Positions 6,622 to 58,651 of a stretch of 64,000 bases of DNA are shown here, piece by piece. Numbering within the stretch: the first letter of the stretch is position 1; each line of letters starts with the position of its first letter. Position numbers and translations under genes: made by a program. Source of the DNA: Bacteroidales bacterium (lineage in GTDB: Bacteria; Bacteroidota; Bacteroidia; Bacteroidales; VadinHA17). A model generated the notes under the pieces. The model worked only from the letters and a program-made list of their open reading frames with translations. It did not search any database and was not told the origin of the DNA. The stretch covers positions 5,470-69,469 of the forward strand of contig JAWLFR010000003.1 of NCBI GenBank assembly GCA_041685495.1. Reading direction: 5' to 3'.

Positions 6622-7544
6622 AGTTATTGTTCAGAAACAAACATAATACCGGTCGACTTGAATGGCTTAAAAAGCTTGTCCTGCCAGGATTTGACAGGGT
6701 TCCTATCTACGATGTTATTATTTTTTTTATACGGGGATTCAGAAAAGGAGCGCTGGTAACAAGAGCATCAGCCATTGCCTTTAACCTGCTGCTCAGCCTT
6801 GTTCCGGCAACCTTCTTTCTCTTTACCCTTATACCATATATCCCCATCCCTAATTTCCAGAATGAAGTAATCTTACTTTTTGAAAGCATAATGCCGGAAA
6901 GGGCCAATGACTATTTCAAACAGAGTATTGTTGAAGCTATTACCAACCGCAGTGATGCCTTCCTTATAATCATGTTTCTTGCCTCTGCCATAATGTCCAC
7001 AAACGGCATTCATGCTCTTATCAATGCTTTTGTTGTATCGGATCATAAATTTGAAACCAGGAGCTGGATAGCACAGAGGAAGATTGCTTTTTTCCTCTTT
7101 TTCATCATAGGCCTGCTTATCACCATCTCGGCCATACTTCTTATCTTCGGCAGGTCAGCAGTGGAGAGGCTGGTACAGAATAATATTATTGAAAGCAGTA
7201 TTGTTTTTTATATCCTGCTTATCTCCAAATGGGTGGTTATAATAAGCCTGCTGTTCCTTGCTATATCATTCCTTTACTACCTTGCCCCGTCAAGGAAGGC
7301 CAGGTTCAGGTTTATCTCGGCCGGATCTTCCCTTGCCACACTGCTTTTTATTTCCACCTCACTGGGATTTTCTGCCTATGTGAATAATTTTGACCAGTAC
7401 AATAAGCTGTACGGCTCAATGGGAACGGTGCTTGTAATACTGTTATGGCTCTATCTCAATTCCATAACCCTCCTAACCGGTTTCGAGCTGAATGCCAGTA
7501 TTAAGACAGCCAATTCAAATAACTCCGGGAACGGAGACAGCTAA
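6618..7544 (+). CDS. YihY/BrkB (virulence factor BrkB / RNase BN-like) family membrane protein
   Basis: 308 aa with about 6 TM helices. The N-terminal RASAIAFNLLLSLVP motif and C-terminal YGSMGTVLVILLWLYL motif are characteristic. The ATGA start overlaps the nadC stop. Confidence 0.8.
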   Translation: MKLLFRNKHNTGRLEWLKKLVLPGFDRVPIYDVIIFFIRGFRKGALVTRASAIAFNLLLSLVPATFFLFTLIPYIPIPNFQNEVILLFESIMPERANDYFKQSIVEAITNRSDAFLIIMFLASAIMSTNGIHALINAFVVSDHKFETRSWIAQRKIAFFLFFIIGLLITISAILLIFGRSAVERLVQNNIIESSIVFYILLISKWVVIISLLFLAISFLYYLAPSRKARFRFISAGSSLATLLFISTSLGFSAYVNNFDQYNKLYGSMGTVLVILLWLYLNSITLLTGFELNASIKTANSNNSGNGDS

Positions 7545-9046
7545 CTGCAATGCAGAAACTCATTTACAAGCTCTGCCAGCTCATCATGTTTTCCGTAAAG
7601 CCTTTCACTCAGATCCTTATCGTCATACGACTTAAGCCTTTTTATTATATTATCTATCAATCCTGCAGGAAAAACATTATCCTTCTCATAGCTGGCTCTT
7701 TGTTTTTCCAGGTTCTCAGCCGACTCCCAGCATGATGCGGGTAAGAGCTTCAACCTGTCCCTGAAGGATTTATTCTCATCTGCAAACAGGTTGCCGGAAA
7801 CATACAGATCATTTGCATATTCAAGGCCATTATCCATCTCAAGGCCATGCTCAATAGCCGTAACCAGTCCGGCCATTAAAAGATAAAGGTCAGCTGATCC
7901 GTCAGGAGCCCTGAATTCAACTGTCTGCTTACTGTCAGAAAAACCAGCTTCGCTTTTCTCCTGCGGGTTCGCATCTGAGATCATATTACCGGTGCCCGTC
8001 CACCCCAGTGGCACTCTTACCAGCACCGACCTGTTCCTGTCGCCCCAGCAAATATTCGTAGGGGCCTCCTGGTGTGGAACCAGACGCAGATACGAGGTGG
8101 GGATTGTATTACCAAAGGCAGTGAGCGAAGCTGAAAGATCAAGTATCCCGGCAATCATCCGCCTTGCTGTAGTGCTTATCTCTCCATCTTCCAACATTAT
8201 GTTCTTACCATCCTTCTCGAGCATCATATGTATATGAAGTCCATTACCGGCCTTGCCTACCGTGATCTTGGGTGCAAAACTGATCTCCACCCCATGTTCA
8301 TAAGCCAGCATCCTGAGTATCCACTTACATATAACCATCTGTTCCACTGCAACATCCACATCTGTAGGCAGGAATTCTATTTCATGCTGCTCATAATTCT
8401 CTCCCTCGCTTGTGAAACTGCCAACCTCTGAATGCCCGTATTTGATGTTACAACCTGCTCCTGCACAAAGGTCAAGGGCTTCTAAACGCAGCGCTTCAAA
8501 CTTGGCAAAAGGCATGGTCTGGTGATATCCTTTCTGGTCGAAAACAGGATAGAGGTCATCTTCTTCCGACTTAACATAATATTCCAGTTCACCCAGTGCT
8601 TTCATTGTTAATCCCGACTTTGACACAAAGCGATTATAGGCCTTTTTCAATATGTTCTCGGGAGCGCTTTCCAGTGGTTTCCCCTTATAATCATAAAATG
8701 AGCACATAATATCGAGGGCAGGCTGTTCCGTGAAAGGATTCACGAATGCAGTGCGGTAACGGGGTATAACATAAAGATCACTTGACCCGGCTCCTACAAA
8801 AGAAAAAAGGCTTGAACCATCAACCCGCTCCCCTTCTGACAAAAGTGACTCCAGGTGCCGGCGACTGGACAAAACAAAATTCAGAGTCTTGAGTTTTCCG
8901 TCTTCAGCCACATAGCGGAAGTTTACCATCTCTATCCCCCGAGCTTCAATAAACCTGATAATATCAGCCTTTGTAAACTGATCTGCAGGCTTTTTCAAAA
9001 ATTGCACAAGCTCATTCGGGTTCATTAATATTTCATTATCTATCAT
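7541..9046 (-). CDS. glnA: Glutamine synthetase, about 500-aa form
   Basis: 501 aa. It has an N-terminal beta-grasp region and a catalytic domain with HSEVG, GNGLHIHM and NICWGDRNRS(V)LVRVP motifs. Confidence 0.85.
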   Translation of the reverse strand: MIDNEILMNPNELVQFLKKPADQFTKADIIRFIEARGIEMVNFRYVAEDGKLKTLNFVLSSRRHLESLLSEGERVDGSSLFSFVGAGSSDLYVIPRYRTAFVNPFTEQPALDIMCSFYDYKGKPLESAPENILKKAYNRFVSKSGLTMKALGELEYYVKSEEDDLYPVFDQKGYHQTMPFAKFEALRLEALDLCAGAGCNIKYGHSEVGSFTSEGENYEQHEIEFLPTDVDVAVEQMVICKWILRMLAYEHGVEISFAPKITVGKAGNGLHIHMMLEKDGKNIMLEDGEISTTARRMIAGILDLSASLTAFGNTIPTSYLRLVPHQEAPTNICWGDRNRSVLVRVPLGWTGTGNMISDANPQEKSEAGFSDSKQTVEFRAPDGSADLYLLMAGLVTAIEHGLEMDNGLEYANDLYVSGNLFADENKSFRDRLKLLPASCWESAENLEKQRASYEKDNVFPAGLIDNIIKRLKSYDDKDLSERLYGKHDELAELVNEFLHCS

Positions 9047-21924: not shown

Positions 21925-23907
21925 ATGAAAAAATTTAACCCAAAAAAGAATTACGAATATACACGAAGGCTTATTGGCTACGTGAGTTTACATAAGGCAT
22001 CTGACGAGGATTACGGGAGGATAGGATTTAAATCAGGCCTGGAGGTACACCAGCAGCTGATGACAACAAGCAAGCTTTTCTGCCGCTGTCCGGCAGGCAT
22101 CTATCATGATGATAATAATTACGACGCCGAAGTAATAAGACATATGCGGCCCACTCTCAGTGAGCTTGGGGAATATGACGGGACAGCTCTGATGGAGTTT
22201 AAAACACGCAAAGAGATAATATACCGCCTGAACAATGAGAATGCCTGTACCTACGAAGTAGATGATACACCTCCCTTTCCCATCGACAGGAAAGCACTGG
22301 ATATAGCTCTTGAAATATCCCTTTTATGCAAACTCAATATAGTGGGGGAAGTGCATATTACAAGAAAGCAATACCTTGACGGAAGCATACCCACAGGTTT
22401 TCAGAGGACAGCAATACTGGGTGTTGAGGGAGAGATAGAGCTCAGCAGCAAGAAGATAAGACTGATACAGCTGAGTATTGAGGAAGACTCATGCCGGGAG
22501 ATATCTGATATTGGCCATACCCGCATATATAAGACTGACCGCCTGGGCATGCCGCTGATTGAGACAGTGACATATCCTGATATGCTAACCCCCTGGGAGC
22601 TGGCTGAGGCTGCAGAATATATCAGGTACCTTAACAGGAGCACCGGCAAGGTGCGCACGGGAATAGGTGCAGGAAGGGAAGACGTAAATGTAAGCTGCGA
22701 AGGAGGCAGCAGGGTTGAGATAAAGGGAGTGTCGCATAACAGCTGGATACCCGAATTATCTCATAATGAAGCTTTCAGGCAGTATGCATTACTACATATC
22801 AGGGACATATTGAATAAAAGGATAGATGACAGTGCGGAATGGAAAATACAGTACAGCGAGATAAGTCCTAATGACAGTGGGCTGATATTTGATCCCGTAA
22901 AAAAAGCCTTCGACGATAATATGAGGGTTTTTGCCATCAGGCTGCCACAGTGCCAGTCCATCTTATCGCATTTCACCCAGCCAGGCAAGATCTTTGCCGA
23001 TGAGATAAGCGACAGGCTGAAGGTCATAGCATGCATAGAAAAGCCCAATATGACTCATTCCGAAGAGATTGATTCTTTAATGCCCCGTAAGAACTGGGAA
23101 AAAGTATCAGATTTACTGGATGCAGATGATGATGATGCCATGATACTGATCTGGGGCCCTTCGGAGGATATCCCAACCGCACTGGAAACGGTTGAGGAAA
23201 GGATAAAGCTGGCTTTGTCAGGGGTTCCCAATGAAACAAGAAAATCATTTTCTGACGGAACCACAATATTCGAAAGGGTGCTGCCGGGAAAGGACAGGAT
23301 GTACCCTGATACCGACTCAGCCCCTATACCCCTGCATGATGATAAGATTGAAAAGATAAGGTCACAGTTGCCTGAAAATGTAGCCGACAGGATCAAAAAG
23401 ATGAAAAAATGGGGTATCCCGGAGGATACTTTTAAATATATACTGAGCAAAAACCTGTACCCTCTTATTGTGTCAATCTCTGAAGATCTTGGGTTTAGTC
23501 CGCGCGAAACAGCCGTCTTCCTCGGTCACAGGTTCAAGAATATTGAAGGAAAAACAAAGGTGCACAAGAACTTCAACTATAATAATATCTATAAGCTTTT
23601 TGAATTTATTAAAGCAAGGGGTCTTCATCCTGGAATTGCCGTACCCATGGTGAGCATACTGTATGAGCATCCCAGGATGAGGCATGAATCAATCCTGACA
23701 ACACTGAACTTCAGGAAGAAGAGCATGCAGGAGATACTGGGCACCATAGATTTTCTCTATGACAAATTTAAGGAAGAGAGGAGATCGGCAGACCCTGACT
23801 GTGCTGTTAACTGGCTTATGGGACAGCTAAGAGGACAGGCAGTGGGCAATGTGGATTTAAGCGAACTGAAGCAAAAGATCGAACAAAGAATAAAAACAGA
23901 TGAGTGA
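21925..23907 (+). CDS. gatE: Glutamyl-tRNA(Gln) amidotransferase subunit E, archaeal type (GatE)
   Basis: 660 aa. It has a GatB/GatE cradle domain (GFKSGLEVHQQL, FCRCP). GatE-specific features are RPTLSELGEYD, GFQRTAILG, SIEEDSCRE (GatB has a different acidic motif here), DRLGMPLIE, EDVNVS...VEIKGV, an inserted domain and a helical tail. Confidence 0.8.
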   Translation: MKKFNPKKNYEYTRRLIGYVSLHKASDEDYGRIGFKSGLEVHQQLMTTSKLFCRCPAGIYHDDNNYDAEVIRHMRPTLSELGEYDGTALMEFKTRKEIIYRLNNENACTYEVDDTPPFPIDRKALDIALEISLLCKLNIVGEVHITRKQYLDGSIPTGFQRTAILGVEGEIELSSKKIRLIQLSIEEDSCREISDIGHTRIYKTDRLGMPLIETVTYPDMLTPWELAEAAEYIRYLNRSTGKVRTGIGAGREDVNVSCEGGSRVEIKGVSHNSWIPELSHNEAFRQYALLHIRDILNKRIDDSAEWKIQYSEISPNDSGLIFDPVKKAFDDNMRVFAIRLPQCQSILSHFTQPGKIFADEISDRLKVIACIEKPNMTHSEEIDSLMPRKNWEKVSDLLDADDDDAMILIWGPSEDIPTALETVEERIKLALSGVPNETRKSFSDGTTIFERVLPGKDRMYPDTDSAPIPLHDDKIEKIRSQLPENVADRIKKMKKWGIPEDTFKYILSKNLYPLIVSISEDLGFSPRETAVFLGHRFKNIEGKTKVHKNFNYNNIYKLFEFIKARGLHPGIAVPMVSILYEHPRMRHESILTTLNFRKKSMQEILGTIDFLYDKFKEERRSADPDCAVNWLMGQLRGQAVGNVDLSELKQKIEQRIKTDE

Positions 23908-25285
23908 TCAGATATTCCAGGGATACAGAGGCAAGGCACTTGACACTCTGAAAAAATACAATGTAAGGGTATGGGGCCAGGCTGTTATTGAAACCACCAG
24001 GGGTGTCTTCACGGGTACCGTGCTGCCCAGGTCTGAGAATGATGATGATATGCACCTTGTCCTGAAGATTGATACCGGGTATAATATTGGTATCAATATC
24101 AGCACCATCAACTCAATGAAAGAAACCGGTTACAAGAAAGCCAATTATAAGATACCCGAGAAGGAATTCCCCTATTCAGATGATAAACCCAGTGTTAAGT
24201 TATTCGGTACAGGGGGGACCATAGCCTCCCGGCTTGATTACCGCACCGGAGCCGTTATACCTGCATTCTCACCGGGTGAACTGTATGGTGCCGTGCCTGA
24301 GCTTGCAGATATATGCAATATTAATACAGAAAAACTCTTTGCCGTATTCAGCGAGAATATGGGTCCCGAACAGTATATAACACTGGCCAAAGCCATAGGC
24401 CGGGAGATAGAGAACGGTGCCAACGGCATAATGATAGGTCATGGCACCGATACGCTCCACCATACGGCAGCCGCCCTGTCATTTATGGTACAGAACCTGC
24501 CGATACCGGTTATACTGGTTGGGTCACAACGCTCATCAGACCGCCCCTCGTCCGATGCAGCACTTAACCTCATCCATGCCTCCTATGCTGCAGCCCATGG
24601 CGATATAGCGGAAGTGATGGTCTGCATGTTCGGTCCCACATCCGATGATTACGGTTTCCTGCACCGGGGTACCAGGGTAAGGAAAATGCACAGCTCCTAC
24701 AGGTCAACATTCAGGACTATAGGTGACACCCCGGTGGCAACGGTAACACGCGATGCCGTTAAACATATCAAAAAAAATACCAATCCGCGCAGGAAAGACA
24801 AGGAGGTAAAAATAATGCCTTACTTCAATGAGCAGGTTACCATGCTTTATTATTACCCGCATATGAGGCCTGAGGTGCTGGACAGCCTGGTGGACATGGG
24901 TTATAAAGGAATAATAATAGTGGGGACAGGATTAGGGCATGTTAACAGGGAACTGTACCCTGCACTTAAGAGGGCAAAAGACAAAGGGGTGGCTGTTTTT
25001 ATGACACTGCAGACAATATGGGGATATGTGCATATGCTGGTTTACGAGACAGGCCGCGATATGATGGCACTGGGAGTGGTACCACTGGGTAATATGCTGC
25101 CCGAGGTGGCATGGGTGAAGCTGGGCTGGGCTTTCGGACAGACAGATGACCCTGAGAAAGTAAAGGAGATAATGCTTAAACCAGTTAATGACGAGATAAC
25201 CGCGAGAGAGCCCTATAATGGATACCTCGTATACCAGGGTGGTGTAGACGAGGTGGAGGAATTCGTAAGGAGATTCAGGAAATAA
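23900..25285 (+). CDS. gatD: Glutamyl-tRNA(Gln) amidotransferase subunit D, archaeal type (GatD; asparaginase-like glutaminase)
   Basis: 461 aa. An N-terminal GatD-specific domain precedes an asparaginase fold (GTGGTIASRLDYRTGAV, HGTDTLHHTAAALSF, VGSQRSSDRPSSDA, HRGTRVRKMHSS). The start overlaps the gatE stop by 8 nt (ATGAGTGA). Confidence 0.85.
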   Translation: MSDQIFQGYRGKALDTLKKYNVRVWGQAVIETTRGVFTGTVLPRSENDDDMHLVLKIDTGYNIGINISTINSMKETGYKKANYKIPEKEFPYSDDKPSVKLFGTGGTIASRLDYRTGAVIPAFSPGELYGAVPELADICNINTEKLFAVFSENMGPEQYITLAKAIGREIENGANGIMIGHGTDTLHHTAAALSFMVQNLPIPVILVGSQRSSDRPSSDAALNLIHASYAAAHGDIAEVMVCMFGPTSDDYGFLHRGTRVRKMHSSYRSTFRTIGDTPVATVTRDAVKHIKKNTNPRRKDKEVKIMPYFNEQVTMLYYYPHMRPEVLDSLVDMGYKGIIIVGTGLGHVNRELYPALKRAKDKGVAVFMTLQTIWGYVHMLVYETGRDMMALGVVPLGNMLPEVAWVKLGWAFGQTDDPEKVKEIMLKPVNDEITAREPYNGYLVYQGGVDEVEEFVRRFRK

Positions 25286-53562: not shown

Positions 53563-54900
53563 ATGTCTGCCAAAAAACGTATTCTCAACATATTATTCTG
53601 GTCGGTGATATCAGCAGCATTTATCGGTCCGGGTACCATAACAACTGCCGCTCGCAGTGGCTCTGCCTATGGAACAGATCTTCTGTGGGCCCTTCTGTTT
53701 TCCACAGCAGCCTGCCTGGTATTACAGGAAGCGGCCTCAAGGATAAGTATTATCACAGGAAAGAACCTGGGACAGTCCATAGCCGGCTATTTCGGAACCC
53801 GCTCCTCCGGAACACCTGTTCTGATACTTGTGCTCGGAGCTATACTTGTCGGCACCGCAGCGTACGAAATGGGAAACCTTATGGGGGCGGTAGCCGGACT
53901 GCAGCTGGTATTTGATATCCCGGCCTGGATACTTGTACTGGCAACAGGTGTGTCTGCAGCTATACTGCTGAGCATTCCCTCGCTGAAAAAAGTTTCAACA
54001 ATACTCGGTATACTGGTAGTTATAATGGGTATATCTTTCCTTTTAACCGCCATCATGGTCAGACCTTCATTCACGAATATTGTAAGGGGCACTTTTATCC
54101 CTTCTTTCCCCGGCCCGGAAGCAGGAATGCTGGTGCTTGCACTTATAGGCACCACCATCGTTCCCTATAACCTCTTTCTGGGCTCCGGCCTCTCTTCATC
54201 CGGACAGTCATTAAAAGAAATGCGCTTTGGCCTTGGCACCGCCATTATCCTTGGTGGTATATTTTCCATGGCGGTGCTTATTGTGGGTTCCGCCGTTGAT
54301 GGTATATTCTCTTTTGACAGCCTGGCCGCTGTTCTGGAAACGGGCATAGGCCCTGCCGGCAAGTACCTGCTCGGCTTCGGCCTGTTTGCTGCAGGATTCA
54401 CCTCCGCAGTCACCGCACCCCTGGCTGCCGCCATTACACTGCGCAGCCTTTTCGGTCAGCCATACCCGGAAAAATGGAAAGCCGGAAGCTGGCGGTTCCG
54501 GTCGGGATGGTTAAGTGTACTGCTTGCCGGAGTGATCTTTGCATCACTTAATTTCAGGCCTGTTCCGGCTATAATAATTGCCCAGGCACTGAACGGATTT
54601 CTTCTGCCATTTATAAGCATCTTCCTGTTCATAATAATACGCAAAAGCATACAGAAAAGATCCCTGCCGGTCAGGATTTCCAGCTTCCTGATGCTGGCAG
54701 TAATCTTCATAACCTTAATCATAGGACTTAACAGCGCCGTGAAGGCCGTAATCAACCTGGTAAGTGAGGGATCGCCCGTCACAATGCCTGTTCAGATAAT
54801 AATAGTATGCTTCTCACTGGCCCTGGTAGTAATGGTGGGACTGGCCGGCAGGCAGATGTATAACAATCAGGATAATAATAACAGGATGAAAAATGCATAA
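53563..54900 (+). CDS. NRAMP-fold permease lacking the canonical metal-binding signature
   Basis: 445 aa with about 11 TM helices and overall NRAMP/MntH-like order. The TM1 motif is GPGT (nt 53626-53637) instead of DPGN. The TM6 motif is GTTIVPYN (VPY at nt 54160-54168) instead of GA-x-x-MPHN. Confidence 0.8.
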   Translation: MSAKKRILNILFWSVISAAFIGPGTITTAARSGSAYGTDLLWALLFSTAACLVLQEAASRISIITGKNLGQSIAGYFGTRSSGTPVLILVLGAILVGTAAYEMGNLMGAVAGLQLVFDIPAWILVLATGVSAAILLSIPSLKKVSTILGILVVIMGISFLLTAIMVRPSFTNIVRGTFIPSFPGPEAGMLVLALIGTTIVPYNLFLGSGLSSSGQSLKEMRFGLGTAIILGGIFSMAVLIVGSAVDGIFSFDSLAAVLETGIGPAGKYLLGFGLFAAGFTSAVTAPLAAAITLRSLFGQPYPEKWKAGSWRFRSGWLSVLLAGVIFASLNFRPVPAIIIAQALNGFLLPFISIFLFIIIRKSIQKRSLPVRISSFLMLAVIFITLIIGLNSAVKAVINLVSEGSPVTMPVQIIIVCFSLALVVMVGLAGRQMYNNQDNNNRMKNA

Positions 54901-57900
54901 GGAAGAGTATAAAATATTTGTAGATACCGGCGGCACCTTCACAGATTGTATAGGCATTGACGGCGGCGGCAGGCGCAAACGTCTCAAGGTGTTGAGCAAC
55001 AGCAGCCTGAGAGGCAGCATAACAGATATTGTTTCACCTGTGGAGTTTATTATAAAAGAATCATGGAAGCTGCCACGCGACCTTGTCAGGGGCTTCTCTT
55101 TCCGTATAATACCCGGATCATATTCAGGTGTTTTGGTCGAAAGCTATGATATTGAATCATCCCGCATCATACTGAGCAGACCGCTGCCTGAGATGCCTGA
55201 AAAGAACAGCAATTTTGAGATCACATCGAATGAAGAAGCGCCCATACTGGGGATACGCCTGCTGACTGAAACAGGTCTGGACGAAAAATTCCCGCCTTTA
55301 ACCCTGAAACTGGGGTCTACCACCGGAACAAATGCTTTACTGGAGAGAAAAGGAGCAAGGACATTATTTATAACAACAACCGGCTTTTCCGACCTGCTGG
55401 AGATAGGCAAGCAGTCGCGACCCGACATATTTGCCCTGAACGTAAAAAAACGATCCATGCTGTACAGCCATGTTATTGAGCTGGATGAGCGTATTGATGC
55501 AGACGGCAGGGTATTACATGCACCGGATATTGACAGGCTCCGCGCCATGCTACAAAAAGAAGAGGCCGCTTCATATGAATCAGTTGCCATCTGCCTTATG
55601 AACAGCTTCATTAACCCGGCACATGAGAACCTTGTAGTAAATGAATTAAAGGCCCTGGGCATAGAATATATCTCGGCTTCACATAATATATCCCCTCTGA
55701 TAAAAATCCAGAACCGCGCAGATACAACGGTTGTTAACGCATACCTTGCACCTGTCATCAATAAATATGTCAAAGGCATAAAAAAATATACAGGCAACAG
55801 CCAGTTCCAGGTTATGACCAGTGCGGGCGGACTGGTGCAGGCAGGACATTTCCTTCCAAAAGACAGCCTGCTCAGCGGCCCGGCCGGAGGTGTGGCAGGT
55901 GCACTGGCCATAGGAGAAAAGTCGGGTTACAGGAAACTTATAACATTTGATATGGGCGGCACCAGCACCGATGTTTCACGCGTTGACGGATCCTTTGATT
56001 ACAGGTATGAGCTGGAGGTGGGTGATGCCCGTATCAACAGTCCTGCCATTGCCATTGAAACAGTGGCAGCCGGAGGCGGTTCTGTCTGCGGCTTCGACGG
56101 GTATAAGCTGTTCGTTGGCCCGGAAAGTGCCGGTGCCTGGCCCGGACCAGCATGCTATGGAGCGGGTGGACCTCTGACCCTTACAGATGTTAACCTGCTG
56201 CTTGGCCGGCTTGATACGCGTCAGTTTGGTATACCTGTATTTATATCGCATGCAAAAGGGTGCCTTGATAAACTGGTAAGGGAGATAAAAGAGAAGACAG
56301 GTAAAGAAAGAAAGCCCAGGGATATTCTTCAGGGTTTTGCAGACATAGCCAATGAGCTAATGGCCGGGGCTATAAGGAAGATATCACTTGCAAGGGGATA
56401 TAAGCCTTCCGACTTTGCAATGGTAGCATTCGGCGGCGCCGGAGGCCTGCATGCATGTGATATTGCAGATATCCTGGATATTGGCACTGTCTTACTGCCC
56501 GGGGATGCAGGTCTGCTGAGTGCTTATGGTATAGGTAATGCTGCGGTGGAACGCTTCTCCGTCAAACAGATACTGAAAGACCTGGACCAGGTAAAGGATA
56601 GTCTGGACGAGCTCTTTGCCGGCTGTGAAGCTGAGGCCTCAAGACTGCTGCTTGAAGAAGGGTTCCCGGCTGAAAAGATAAAAACCCACCGCAAACTGGC
56701 TTTTATGCGCTACAGGGGCCAGGACAGCTGCCTGGAAATACCCTGCACCAATACAGAAAGTCTTGCCGGTGACTTTCGCAGCCTGTATAAAGACACATAC
56801 GGGCACAGTGTCAGCGGGCGCAGCATAGAAGTGGAATCCATCAGGGCCATTGTAAGGGTACATGAAGAGGACAGTATGGATGAGCAGCCCGTAACAGGCA
56901 GCCATAAACCGGAACCCTCACATATGGTTAATGACAGAACACCTGTATTCACATTCGATTCACTGGGACCGGGCGATTGTTTTGAGGGCACTGCACTGCT
57001 TACAGACCATTTTGCAACAACATGGCTGAAAAAAGGCTGGCACCTGAAAATTGATCAGGCCGGTACAGCTATTCTAAGCCGCCGGCAAAAAAAGAGTGTG
57101 AAAAAAGATCCCGGGGCACAGGAGACAGAGCTGGAATTATTTAGCAAGCGCTTTATGTCAATAGCAGAAAACATGGGTGCACTACTGCAACGCACGGCCC
57201 TTTCGGTAAACATTAAAGAGCGACTCGATTTTTCATGCGCCCTGCTGGATGCCGAAGGCAGGCTGGTGGCCAACGCACCTCATATACCAGTACACCTTGG
57301 CGGGCTGGGCGTATGTGTAAGAGAGTTGTTAAAACATTTCAGCTTCGAAGAAGGTGATACAATCGTTACCAATCACCCGAAATACGGTGGATCACACCTT
57401 CCTGATGTTACCATGGTGAGCCCGGTCTATTATAAAGGTGAACGTGTTGGCTTCGTGGTAAACAGGGCCCATCACAGCGAGATAGGAGGTATCAGTCCGG
57501 GTTCCATGCCTCCCGGTGCAGCCAGCCTGCAGGAAGAAGGGGTTGTAATAAGCCCTTTCTACCTTGTCAAAAAAGGAGTGCTCAACCGGGATGGTATGAG
57601 GGAAATACTTACTGATTATCCCTACCCCAGCCGTTCTGCAGAAGAAAATATGGCCGACCTTAATGCATCCCTGGCCGCCAATCATAACGGAAGCAAAGCA
57701 TTACTTACCCTTATCAGCCGGCATGGCAGGCAGACAGTTGTAGATTATATGGATCAGCTGCGGTCCTACGCCTCATCCCGAATGAAAGGCACACTGACAA
57801 AATTTACAGATGGTACATACAGGGCTGTTGAGTATCTGGATGATGGTTCCGTGATAAAAGCAGCTATTATGCTTGACGCAGGAAAATGCACCATTGATTT

Positions 57901-58651
57901 TACCGGCAGTGCGGATGTTAATGATTCAAATATGAATGCTACGGAAGCCATAGTCAAAAGCGTAACCATCTACGTTCTCCGTTTGCTCCTTGACGAGCCC
58001 ATACCCCTCAATGACGGGCTTATGGAACCTGTCAGAATAATACTCCCTCATGGAATGCTGAATCCTGTGTTTGTCGATAAGCCGGAACTATGCCCGGCCG
58101 TTGTGGGTGGAAACGTAGAAATAAGCCAGCGCCTTACTGACACCCTGCTCAAGGCTTTCGGCATTATAGCTGCCAGTCAGGGCACAATGAACAACACCCT
58201 GTTCGGCAATGATAATTTCGGCTATTATGAAACCGTGTGCGGGGGATGCGGGGCGGGAAAAGGATTCAGGGGCGCTGATGCCGTGCATCACCATATGACA
58301 AACACAAAAATTACCGATCCGGAGATCATGGAGCACAGATACCCGGTAAGACTTGAAGAATTCTCTGTACGCAGAGGATCGGGAGGTCAGGGCAGATGGA
58401 AGGGAGGTGACGGGGTCAGGCGCGTCATAAGATTCCTTGAACCGGTTAATCTGTCAGTCCTGACGCAGAGGCGCCTGAGCGGCCCTTATGGATGCTCGGG
58501 CGGGACAGACGGACTGCCCGGCTGCCAGAAGATAATAAAAAAGAATGGTGATATTGTTCATCTCGGCTCCGTGCAGAATATAAACCTAGATGCAGGCGAC
58601 ATCTTCGTAATGGAAACACCAGGTGGAGGAGGTTTCGGGAAAGAAAGCTGA
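54893..58651 (+). CDS. Fused hydantoinase/oxoprolinase (HyuA-HyuB), ATP-dependent 5-oxoprolinase type
   Basis: 1252 aa. The N-terminal hydantoinase_A part has VDTGGTFTD and DMGGTSTDV. The C-terminal hydantoinase_B part has [22 protein letters not shown] and TPGGGGFG. Its size and fusion match eukaryote-type OPLAH. The start overlaps the permease stop by 8 nt (ATGCATAA). Confidence 0.85.

What the first reader, a model, noticed from the sequence alone, without database searches (positions are those of the whole stretch)
21925..25285. Intact archaeal-type GatE-GatD transamidase pair in a bacterial housekeeping context
The two ORFs read as genuine GatE and GatD, not as GatB plus a stand-alone asparaginase.

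- **GatE evidence:** it carries RPTLSELGEYD, GFQRT, SIEEDSCRE and an inserted domain.
- **GatD evidence:** it has the GatD-specific N-terminal domain plus all asparaginase-type catalytic motifs (TGGTIAS, HGTDT, SDRPSSDA, RVRKMH).
- **Operon structure:** the genes overlap by 8 nt (ATGAGTGA), which suggests co-translation of a heterodimer.
- **Why it is unusual:** GatDE is textbook archaeal, making Gln-tRNAGln in organisms without GlnRS. Bacteria use GatCAB or GlnRS, and Bacteroidota normally encode GlnRS. Here the pair sits between an FtsX/LolE permease and a Nudix hydrolase, with no mobile-element genes nearby and no obvious compositional break.
- **Possible explanations:** an old archaea-to-bacteria transfer that replaced or supplements the bacterial route, or a repurposed enzyme.

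I cannot tell from the window how common this pair is in related genomes.
Basis: partly seen in the sequence, partly recalled or inferred. Interest (0 to 1): 0.7.

Follow-up and report, generated by a model that had tools for sequence, protein, structure and literature searches.

The report
Archaeal-type GatDE amidotransferase in a bacterium
This Bacteroidales bacterium carries an intact, strongly conserved gene pair for GatDE, an enzyme that turns glutamate into glutamine on its tRNA and that textbooks call archaea-only, and the pair belongs to a large, apparently undescribed bacterial branch of that enzyme family.

Summary
ORFs 21925-23907 and 23900-25285 pass NCBI's curated GatE and GatD equivalog cut-offs and fail the GatB models. 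All experimentally defined catalytic residues are present, and the predicted fold matches archaeal GatE. The genes overlap by 8 nt.

The pair is not an isolated oddity:
- At least 537 GTDB species genomes, mostly environmental Bacteroidales, carry a relative.
- The block NamZ-LolE-gatE-gatD-Nudix-MltF-porin-FtsZ persists down to about 61% GatE identity.
- dS matches the neighbouring genes, and dN/dS is very low (GatD 0.02-0.04).

The Bacteroidales proteins nest inside a well-supported bacterial GatE clade that also includes Calditrichia, Aminicenantes, Latescibacteria, KSB1 and Krumholzibacteria. With a GatB outgroup this clade falls within archaeal diversity.

tRNA-Gln genes on two gatE-bearing contigs are ordinary Bacteroidales tRNAs with U1-A72, not the archaeal A1-U72 pair.

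Reviews up to 2022 still call GatDE archaea-only, and I found no paper on the bacterial clade, although annotation pipelines already name these proteins.

Most likely function: Gln-tRNA(Gln) synthesis from Glu-tRNA(Gln). I could not test whether glnS or gatCAB coexist in the genome.

The parts
21925..23907 (+). gatE: Glu-tRNA(Gln) amidotransferase subunit E (tRNA-dependent kinase/amidase), 660 aa
   Evidence: NCBIfam GatE equivalogs NF003107 at 473.5 bits (cut-off 456) and TIGR00134 at 405.9 (cut-off 319.55); GatB models reach at most 116 bits against 338. Full-length match to archaeal GatE chains 2d6f_C and 1zq1_C. AF2 model has pLDDT 83.9, and its best Foldseek hits are 1zq1_C and 2d6f_D.
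21925..22008 (+). GatE N-terminal extension (residues 1-28), absent from the archaeal proteins aligned here
   Evidence: Archaeal alignments start at residue 29. The extension is 54% conserved among distant Bacteroidales and 7% against other bacterial phyla. It is predicted helical with pLDDT 81-95.
22009..22818 (+). GatE cradle (catalytic) domain, N-terminal part, with Mg2+ ligands H42 (22048-22050), E186 (22480-22482) and E213 (22561-22563)
   Evidence: These residues align to M. thermautotrophicus His15/Glu157/Glu184, whose Ala mutants are inactive (PMC2330236). They are invariant in all 123 aligned bacterial and archaeal GatE sequences apart from alignment gaps in three archaeal rows. This domain is 68% identical to other bacterial phyla.
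22819..23199 (+). GatE-specific AspRS-like (GAD) insertion domain, residues about 299-425
   Evidence: About 160 extra residues sit inside the Pfam GatB_N match. GAD domain PF02938 scores 22.2 bits with E 1.7e-4, just under the 23.4 cut-off. The region aligns with the insertion of 2d6f_C and is folded with pLDDT 84-96.
23200..23394 (+). GatE cradle domain, C-terminal part (residues 426-490), including the invariant PGxxRMYPDTD motif
   Evidence: Invariant columns R451-D464 in the 50-sequence bacterial alignment. Aligned to 2d6f_C and 1zq1_C.
23395..23904 (+). GatE helical and tail domains (residues 491-660), the part that reads the tRNA D-loop in archaeal GatE; strongly diverged here
   Evidence: Only 15-16% identical to other bacterial phyla and 46-50% within Bacteroidales. 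No YqeY-tail Pfam hit even at E<=10. It is nevertheless predicted all-helical with pLDDT 83-96. It keeps LMG...G641 where M. thermautotrophicus has LMG...RGRADG.
23900..23907 (+). 8-nt overlap ATGAGTGA: gatD start codon inside the end of gatE
   Evidence: Sequence read directly. The same -8 junction occurs in 7 close Bacteroidales relatives and in a Calditrichia locus (L081) and an unnamed 5.98 Mb contig (L085). Most relatives have small gaps instead.
23900..25285 (+). gatD: Glu-tRNA(Gln) amidotransferase subunit D (asparaginase-type glutaminase), 461 aa
   Evidence: NCBIfam GatD equivalogs NF003217 at 498.3 bits (cut-off 310) and TIGR02153 at 497.1 (cut-off 324). Matches 2d6f_A at 387.6 bits and 1zq1_A at 374.5, while the best stand-alone asparaginase gives 140. 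dN/dS 0.02-0.04.
23996..24109 (+). GatD-specific N-terminal domain (Pfam GatD_N, residues 33-70)
   Evidence: PF18195 at 42.7 bits against a 25.7 cut-off.
24194..25174 (+). GatD asparaginase-fold N and C domains with the catalytic set: T107 in TGGT (24218-24220), T183-D184 in HGTDT (24446-24451), K262 in RVRKMH (24683-24685)
   Evidence: PF00710 at 188.5 bits and PF17763 at 107.7 bits. The motifs are aligned and identical in M. thermautotrophicus and P. abyssi GatD and in GatD from four other bacterial loci. The catalytic Thr plus Thr-Lys-Asp triad is described in PMC2330236.

Best explanation
The two genes encode a functional heterodimeric (by analogy alpha2-beta2) tRNA-dependent amidotransferase of the GatDE type.

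Proposed mechanism: GatE binds Glu-tRNA(Gln) and phosphorylates the glutamyl side chain using ATP and Mg2+, held by H42, E186 and E213. GatD hydrolyses Gln or Asn with its asparaginase-type Thr/Thr-Asp-Lys site. The ammonia passes to GatE and converts the activated intermediate into Gln-tRNA(Gln).

The pair is a vertically inherited core gene of an environmental Bacteroidales lineage. It belongs to a pan-bacterial GatDE clade that descends from an ancient archaeal, possibly Asgard-like, donor.

Most likely it works with a non-discriminating GluRS as this organism's route, or main route, to Gln-tRNA(Gln), acting on an ordinary bacterial tRNA(Gln) with U1-A72.

Shown here: family membership, intact catalytic residues and fold, operon pairing, purifying selection, vertical inheritance, the bacterial clade, and U1-A72 tRNA-Gln on related contigs. 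Inferred: the enzymatic activity, the tRNA substrate, the GluRS partner, and whether GlnRS is absent.
For: - Family membership: equivalog-level scores for both subunits, with GatB rejected. GatD_N and asparaginase domains are present.
- Comparison with solved structures: full-length alignment to archaeal GatDE chains.
- Catalytic residues: the three Mg2+ ligands are invariant in 123 sequences, and the GatD catalytic motifs are conserved.
- Fold: AF2 model with pLDDT 83.9 and pTM 0.81, with best structural matches 1zq1_C and 2d6f_D.
- Pairing: gatD follows gatE in 73 of 76 genome loci and 61 of 65 metagenome loci that extend far enough downstream.
- Selection: dN/dS is 0.02-0.04 for GatD and 0.03-0.11 for GatE, as low as or lower than FtsZ, and dS equals that of the neighbours.
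- Vertical inheritance: synteny is conserved down to 61% GatE identity.
- Bacterial context in other phyla: long bacterial contigs carry the same pair beside dnaA, recO, secA or glnA.
- Phylogeny: the bacteria/archaea split has 100% bootstrap support and the Bacteroidales core 100%. With GatB rooting the bacterial clan has 92% and archaeal monophyly 0.5%.
- Substrate: tRNA-Gln on two gatE contigs is an ordinary U1-A72 Bacteroidales tRNA-Gln.
Against: - No glnS, gltX, gatCAB, asnS or tRNA gene lies in the window or clusters with the pair in 2.2 Mb of related loci. The pathway context is therefore unknown.
- Cultured Bacteroidales have GlnRS and AsnRS and no GatCAB. If this genome also has GlnRS, GatDE would not be the sole route.
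- The tRNA-reading helical and tail domains are strongly diverged and no longer match the YqeY profile.
- The likely substrate carries U1-A72 rather than the A1-U72 read by archaeal GatDE. Specificity therefore cannot simply be carried over from the archaeal enzyme.
- The trees are NJ only, and clade labels rest on about 20 named sequences and four gene contexts.
Confidence: 0.8

Rival explanations
1. GatDE coexists with GlnRS and is not the main route to Gln-tRNA(Gln). It would serve as a back-up, a conditional route (for example tRNA-dependent glutamine supply under nitrogen or glutamine limitation), or a proofreader that rescues Glu-tRNA(Gln) mischarged by a relaxed GluRS.
For: All cultured Bacteroidales in the 547-genus survey have glnS=1 and gatCAB=0. 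The gatE-linked tRNA-Gln is indistinguishable in its identity elements (U1-A72, A73, D-arm) from tRNA-Gln of GlnRS-using Bacteroides, Phocaeicola and Parabacteroides, so it would remain a GlnRS substrate. In one complete bacterial genome, glnA lies directly upstream of gatE.
Against: The very strong purifying selection on GatD (dN/dS 0.02-0.04, below FtsZ) and retention across hundreds of species fit an essential role better than a redundant one. No GlnRS gene was seen, but none could have been, because only about 20 kb per genome was readable.
Confidence: 0.2
2. The bacterial GatDE has altered or broadened specificity. Bacterial tRNA(Gln) and tRNA(Asn) both carry U1-A72 and the tail domain has diverged, so the enzyme may amidate Asp-tRNA(Asn) as well as, or instead of, Glu-tRNA(Gln), taking over the dual role of GatCAB.
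For: The substrate-side determinant differs from the archaeal one (U1-A72). The helical and tail domains that discriminate tRNA(Gln) from tRNA(Asn) in archaea are only 15-16% identical to other phyla and lack a YqeY profile match. Cultured Bacteroidales lack GatCAB.
Against: The AspRS-like insertion domain, which is modelled to clash with ND-AspRS (PMC2330236), is retained. Cultured Bacteroidales have AsnRS, so no Asp-AdT is needed. The glutamyl-specific cradle is 68-87% conserved.
Confidence: 0.08
3. The pair is an artefact: archaeal contamination or a chimeric assembly in a bacterial bin, or a misread GatB plus an ordinary asparaginase.
For: GatDE is described as exclusively archaeal in the literature. 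One related contig carries an implausible taxon label, Thiohalospira.
Against: The same bacterial gene order around the pair recurs in dozens of independent assemblies. Composition and dS match the neighbours. Contigs up to complete chromosomes of 4-6 Mb carry the pair. GatB models fail by more than 200 bits, and GatD outscores every stand-alone asparaginase and has the GatD_N domain.
Confidence: 0.01

Closest known systems
Archaeal GatDE (Methanothermobacter thermautotrophicus, PDB 2D6F; Pyrococcus abyssi, PDB 1ZQ1)
   Same: The two-subunit composition and domain order are the same: GatD has the N-domain plus asparaginase fold, and GatE has cradle, AspRS-like insertion, helical and tail domains. 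The Mg2+ ligands and Thr/Thr-Asp-Lys residues are the same. Both proteins align over their full length (GatE 292.6 bits, GatD 387.6 bits), and these are the best structural matches.
   Different: The host is a bacterium. The sequence belongs to a separate, 100%-supported bacterial clade with its own motifs, RKQYLDGSIP and EEDSCRE. It has a 28-aa N-terminal extension. The tail has diverged beyond Pfam recognition. The likely tRNA(Gln) substrate has U1-A72 rather than A1-U72.
Bacterial GatCAB (GatB kinase subunit with GatA amidase and GatC)
   Same: It catalyses the same overall reaction. GatE and GatB are paralogs sharing the cradle fold and Mg2+ site. GatCAB is the enzyme that normally reads U1-A72 tRNA(Gln) in bacteria (PMC2811023).
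   Different: GatB models score only 116 bits or less against a 338 cut-off. GatB lacks the insertion domain. The ammonia-generating partner here is an asparaginase-type GatD, not an amidase-type GatA, and no GatA or GatC lies nearby.
Stand-alone type I L-asparaginase (AnsA-like)
   Same: GatD shares the fold and catalytic residues, and TIGR00519 is matched at 377.5 bits.
   Different: GatD-specific models score higher (about 498 bits). The GatD_N domain is present. The gene is fused in an operon with gatE. The best solved stand-alone asparaginase gives 140 bits, against 388 for archaeal GatD.
GatE/GatD proteins auto-annotated in bacterial MAGs (Bacteroidales, Calditrichia, Aminicenantes, Latescibacteria, KSB1, Krumholzibacteria, CSSED10-310)
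   Same: The window proteins are 60-95% (GatE) and 70-99% (GatD) identical to Bacteroidales members, and 45-51% (GatE) and 63-69% (GatD) identical to the four loci examined from other phyla. The operon is the same.
   Different: None of substance. The window is one more member of this clade, and the clade exists in databases by name only, with no characterisation found.

Membership tests
GatE (Glu-tRNA(Gln) amidotransferase subunit E) | Scores above the curated equivalog cut-offs of the GatE models and below those of the GatB models | tested here: met
   NF003107 at 473.5 against 456 and TIGR00134 at 405.9 against 319.55. The best GatB model gives 115.9 against 338.
GatE (Glu-tRNA(Gln) amidotransferase subunit E) | Cradle domain with the three Mg2+-binding residues required for kinase and transamidase activity (Mth His15, Glu157, Glu184) | tested here: met
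   H42, E186 and E213 are present and invariant across 123 bacterial and archaeal sequences. The requirement comes from PMC2330236.
GatE (Glu-tRNA(Gln) amidotransferase subunit E) | AspRS-like insertion domain that GatB lacks | tested here: met
   A roughly 160-residue insert sits in the GatB_N match. The GAD domain scores 22.2 bits, just under its cut-off. The insert is folded with high pLDDT and aligned to 1zq1_C and 2d6f over 511-524 columns.
GatE (Glu-tRNA(Gln) amidotransferase subunit E) | C-terminal YqeY-like tail with the GatE-type glycine motif in place of GatB's Lys-rich KxGKxK motif | tested here: inconclusive
   No YqeY Pfam hit, and identity to other phyla is low. However, NCBIfam alignment runs to position 628 of 630, the region is confidently helical, LMG...G641 aligns with the archaeal LMG...RGxxDG, and no Lys-rich motif is present.
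GatE (Glu-tRNA(Gln) amidotransferase subunit E) | Encoded together with, and acting with, a GatD subunit | tested here: met
   gatD overlaps gatE by 8 nt. The two genes are adjacent in 73 of 76 and 61 of 65 related loci.
GatD (Glu-tRNA(Gln) amidotransferase subunit D) | Scores above the curated GatD equivalog cut-offs | tested here: met
   NF003217 at 498.3 against 310 and TIGR02153 at 497.1 against 324.
GatD (Glu-tRNA(Gln) amidotransferase subunit D) | GatD-specific N-terminal domain in front of the asparaginase fold | tested here: met
   PF18195 GatD_N at 42.7 bits (cut-off 25.7), plus PF00710 and PF17763.
GatD (Glu-tRNA(Gln) amidotransferase subunit D) | Asparaginase-type catalytic Thr nucleophile and Thr-Asp-Lys triad | tested here: met
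   T107, T183, D184 and K262 lie in TGGT, HGTDT and RKMH, aligned to both solved archaeal GatD proteins.
GatDE system as described in archaea | ATP-dependent conversion of Glu-tRNA(Gln) to Gln-tRNA(Gln) | not testable with these tools
   This needs an enzyme assay. It is inferred only from conserved residues, fold and selection.
GatDE system as described in archaea | Substrate tRNA(Gln) carries the A1-U72 first base pair that GatDE reads | tested here: not met
   tRNA-Gln genes on two gatE-bearing Bacteroidales contigs (L061, L169) have U1-A72 and A73, like tRNA-Gln of GlnRS-using Bacteroidales. This was tested on related contigs, not in the window's own genome, which shows no tRNA gene in the 64 kb.
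GatDE system as described in archaea | Genome lacks GlnRS and has a non-discriminating GluRS | not testable with these tools
   Only the 64 kb window and about 20 kb around relatives were readable, and none held glnS or gltX.
GatDE system as described in archaea | Archaeal host ('archaeal signature protein') | tested here: not met
   The window holds bacterial genes: valS, lolE-like, mltF, ftsZ, ftsA, namZ. The closest relatives are Bacteroidales MAGs.
GatB (subunit of GatCAB) | Scores above the GatB equivalog cut-offs, has no insertion domain, and is partnered with gatA and gatC | tested here: not met
   The score is at most 116 bits against cut-offs of 315-680. An insertion domain is present. 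No gatA lies in the window or in related loci.

The most novel reading that the evidence does not exclude
A whole bacterial branch of GatDE, here in Bacteroidales, has replaced GlnRS or GatCAB as the route to Gln-tRNA(Gln). In doing so it would have been re-tuned from the archaeal A1-U72 determinant to the bacterial U1-A72 determinant, through its diverged tail and cradle loop, and possibly gained GatCAB-like dual Glu/Asp specificity.

This would overturn the 'archaeal signature protein' status of GatDE. It would also weaken the argument that co-evolution of GatDE with archaeal tRNA(Gln) explains why archaea never acquired GlnRS.
Probability: 0.25. Interest if true: 0.7.

Novelty: new member of a known kind. 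Interest (0 to 1): 0.5.

Why it matters
GatDE is described in primary papers and in reviews up to 2022 as found exclusively in archaea. That exclusivity underpins arguments about LUCA's amidotransferases and about why archaea never acquired GlnRS.

This locus and its relatives show a large, vertically inherited and strongly constrained GatDE clade in bacteria. It spans hundreds of Bacteroidales species and several other phyla.

This opens three testable questions:
- How does a GatDE read a U1-A72 bacterial tRNA(Gln)?
- Does it displace GlnRS or GatCAB?
- When and from which archaea was it acquired?

For genome annotation, it means that a missing glnS or gatCAB in such MAGs need not indicate incompleteness.

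Tried and rejected
1. GatB plus asparaginase reading: rejected by the model scores.
2. Contamination or chimera: rejected by the recurrent bacterial synteny, matching dS and composition, and megabase contigs.
3. Recent horizontal transfer into this lineage: rejected. There are no mobile-element genes, no GC or GC3 break, and synteny is conserved to 61% identity.
4. Obligatory translational coupling through the 8-nt overlap: not general.
5. Search for pathway partners (GlnRS, GluRS, AsnRS, GatA, GatB) in the window and 166 loci, 2.2 Mb in all: nothing was found except gatE itself. This is uninformative, because the universal GluRS was also absent from that DNA.
6. tRNA and Rfam scans of the window: nothing found.
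7. A73 discriminator as a GatDE-linked, archaeal-like feature of tRNA-Gln: rejected, because GlnRS-using Bacteroides, Phocaeicola and Parabacteroides have it too.
8. Sigma-70 promoter and terminator scan: at the chance level, and not suited to Bacteroidota.
9. Sheppard & Soll 2008 (PMC2366055) could not be read.
10. Six literature searches found no report of a bacterial GatDE.
11. The 1.9 kb insert between gatE and gatD in four loci encodes a kinase-like protein and a glycosyltransferase, which are unrelated to tRNA charging.

Full report
**Observation.** The second starts inside the first through ATGAGTGA at 23900-23907. All quoted peptide motifs are present at the stated places.

**Identity.** Against NCBI's curated models, ORF1 passes both GatE equivalogs: NF003107 at 473.5 bits against a 456 cut-off, and TIGR00134 at 405.9 against 319.55. 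The best GatB model reaches only 115.9 bits against 338. ORF2 passes both GatD equivalogs (498.3 against 310; 497.1 against 324) and scores lower on type I asparaginase (377.5). Pfam finds the GatB/GatE catalytic domain stretched over residues 37-475 for a 277-position profile, which means about 160 inserted residues. In ORF2 it finds GatD_N plus both asparaginase domains. The insert gives a near-threshold GAD (AspRS-like insertion) hit.

**Comparison with solved structures.** Both proteins align over their full length with the two solved archaeal GatDE enzymes. GatE scores 292.6 and 283.3 bits against 2d6f_C and 1zq1_C. GatD scores 387.6 and 374.5 bits, whereas the best stand-alone asparaginase gives 140.

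**Catalytic residues.** The residues shown by mutagenesis to be essential in M. thermautotrophicus GatE are His15, Glu157 and Glu184 (PMC2330236). They correspond to H42, E186 and E213 here and are invariant in all 123 aligned bacterial and archaeal GatE sequences, apart from alignment gaps in three archaeal rows. The GatD Thr nucleophile and Thr-Asp-Lys triad are intact as T107, T183, D184 and K262.

**Predicted structure.** An AlphaFold2 model of GatE is confident (pLDDT 83.9, pTM 0.81). Its best structural matches are 1zq1_C and 2d6f_D, with TM 0.77-0.81 normalised to the target, followed by GatB chains.

**Context and selection.** The window is bacterial. It holds valS, an aminotransferase, a two-component system, trkH, namZ, a lolE-like permease, the pair, a Nudix CoA pyrophosphatase, mltF, a porin, ftsZ and ftsA. 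There are no mobile-element genes, no tRNA and no Rfam hit. GC and GC3 of the pair resemble the neighbours. Against close relatives, dS of gatE and gatD equals that of the flanking genes. dN/dS is 0.03-0.11 for gatE and 0.02-0.04 for gatD, as low as or lower than ftsZ. The genes are therefore old residents under strong constraint.

**Distribution in Bacteroidales.**
The 80 best are almost all Bacteroidales or Bacteroidota MAGs.
- The protein database returned 8000 or more hits. The top 120 are 66-95% identical, and the sources name them GatE of Bacteroidales.
- The block NamZ-LolE-GatE-GatD-Nudix-MltF-porin-FtsZ recurs in 39-52 of the 80 genome loci, down to about 61% GatE identity.
- gatD follows gatE in 73 of 76 genome loci and 61 of 65 metagenome loci with enough downstream sequence.
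- GatD is almost always exactly 461 aa. The junction varies from -8 to about +350 nt, and four loci carry a 1.9 kb unrelated insertion.

**Beyond Bacteroidales.** An exhaustive search of cluster representatives at 50% identity gave 614 clusters below 1e-30. In an NJ tree they form two super-clades.
- One super-clade is archaeal by every name obtained: Heimdallarchaeota, Hodarchaeales, Thorarchaeota, Thermoprotei, Acidilobaceae, Desulfurococcaceae, Parvarchaeota and Methanofastidiosum.
- The other contains the Bacteroidales proteins together with clusters at 42-55% identity. Their named members are bacterial: CSSED10-310, Calditrichia, KSB1, Krumholzibacteria, Aminicenantes, Latescibacteria and Desulfaltia.
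- Contigs of 174 kb to 5.98 Mb from this second group carry the same gatE-gatD pair beside dnaA/rpmB, recO/ftsEX, glnA or secA. Their GatD is 63-69% identical to the window's.

**Phylogeny.** The bacteria/archaea split has 100% bootstrap support, and so does the core Bacteroidales clade. The non-Bacteroidales bacteria are never monophyletic to the exclusion of Bacteroidales. With five GatB sequences as outgroup, the bacterial clan keeps 92% support and archaeal monophyly gets 0.5%, with the root falling among Asgard-type sequences. The bacterial clade and a Heimdallarchaeota representative share the motifs RKQYLDGSIP and EEDSCRE, which other archaea lack. The simplest reading is one ancient archaea-to-bacteria transfer followed by long bacterial history. 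These are NJ trees with a distant outgroup, so the rooting is tentative.

**tRNA side.** Archaeal GatDE reads A1-U72 and the D-loop, whereas bacterial GatCAB reads U1-A72 (PMC2330236, PMC2811023). The window has no tRNA gene. However, two gatE-bearing contigs carry tRNA-Gln: L061, 1.1 kb from gatE, and L169. Both have U1-A72 and A73. tRNA-Gln genes of GlnRS-using Bacteroides, Phocaeicola and Parabacteroides have the same first pair, discriminator and D-arm. No archaeal-type tRNA-Gln travelled with the enzyme on these contigs, and the presumed substrate differs from the archaeal one at a known identity element.

In line with this, the GatE domains that contact the tRNA elbow have diverged strongly. 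They are 15-16% identical to other phyla, against 68% for the cradle, and give no YqeY profile hit. They remain confidently helical and keep the LMG...G motif.

**Literature.** Papers and reviews from 2008 to 2022 describe GatDE as exclusively archaeal. Six full-text searches found no description of a bacterial GatDE. A 547-genus survey shows that cultured Bacteroidales have glnS and asnS but no gatCAB, and that Cytophagia have gatCAB but no glnS. That survey did not look for gatDE.

**Mechanism and uncertainty.** The best-supported explanation is a working GatDE that amidates Glu-tRNA(Gln). I could not establish whether it replaces GlnRS, because only the window and about 20 kb per related genome were readable. 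Screening 2.2 Mb of such DNA found no GlnRS, GluRS, AsnRS or GatA, which only shows that the partner genes are not clustered with gatDE. Redundancy with GlnRS and a broadened Asp/Glu specificity remain open rivals.

**Verdict.** The finding is real and correctly identified. It is ordinary in mechanism and already named by annotation pipelines. It is nonetheless one member of a large bacterial GatDE clade that contradicts a textbook statement and appears undescribed in the literature I could search.

Noticed in passing
L060 9988-11918 (also L044, L068, L073): In four Bacteroidales loci about 1.9 kb is inserted between gatE and gatD. It encodes a 221-aa P-loop kinase-like protein and a 420-aa glycosyltransferase, and the pair otherwise stays intact.
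   Followed up: partly
Protein P0162 / P0276 (Candidatus Heimdallarchaeota GatE): This archaeal GatE shares the bacterial-clade motifs RKQYLDGSIP...GFQRT and EEDSCRE, which other archaeal GatE lack. It is the closest archaeal neighbour of the bacterial clade. This could mark the donor lineage or a back-transfer.
   Followed up: partly
L084 8558-9967 (CP070727.1, complete 4.13 Mb genome labelled 'bacterium'): Glutamine synthetase glnA lies immediately upstream of gatE-gatD on the same strand, which suggests a glutamine-related operon in that lineage.
   Followed up: no
L031 (JBKHIH010000001.1, labelled Thiohalospira sp. MAG): A contig assigned to a gammaproteobacterial MAG has the Bacteroidales NamZ-LolE-GatE-GatD-Nudix gene order at 48-78% protein identity. 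It is probably a mis-binned Bacteroidales contig.
   Followed up: no
L061 3193-3264 (-); L169 20586-20659 (+); L174-L178: Every Bacteroidales tRNA-Gln examined, from gatE-bearing contigs and from gut Bacteroides, Phocaeicola and Parabacteroides, has an A73 discriminator with U1-A72. From my own knowledge, E. coli and B. subtilis tRNA-Gln have G73.
   Followed up: partly
L168 13844-13916 (-): A tRNA-Glu(UUC) on a gatE-bearing contig has a G1.U72 wobble first pair and an 8-nt D-loop, against 7 nt in most of the tRNA-Gln genes. An extra D-loop base in tRNA-Glu is the kind of difference amidotransferases use to reject it.
   Followed up: no
L032, L054, L061, L127, L138, L148, L159: In these loci gatE is not followed by gatD within the DNA available, so in a minority of lineages the two genes are separated or gatD lies elsewhere.
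   Followed up: partly
window 21925-22008: Bacteroidales GatE carries a conserved N-terminal extension of about 28 aa (FNP..NY....IGYV) that is absent from the archaeal proteins aligned. It is predicted helical with high confidence, and its role is unknown.
   Followed up: partly
window 54893-58651 (+): A 1252-aa ORF resembles a fusion of the alpha and beta subunits of caprolactamase/hydantoinase/acetophenone-carboxylase-type enzymes.
   Followed up: no
window 7541-9046 (-): A 501-aa glutamine-synthetase-fold protein scores well below the GlnA equivalog cut-off (210 against 429 bits), so it is a divergent GS-family member about 13 kb from the gatDE pair.
   Followed up: no
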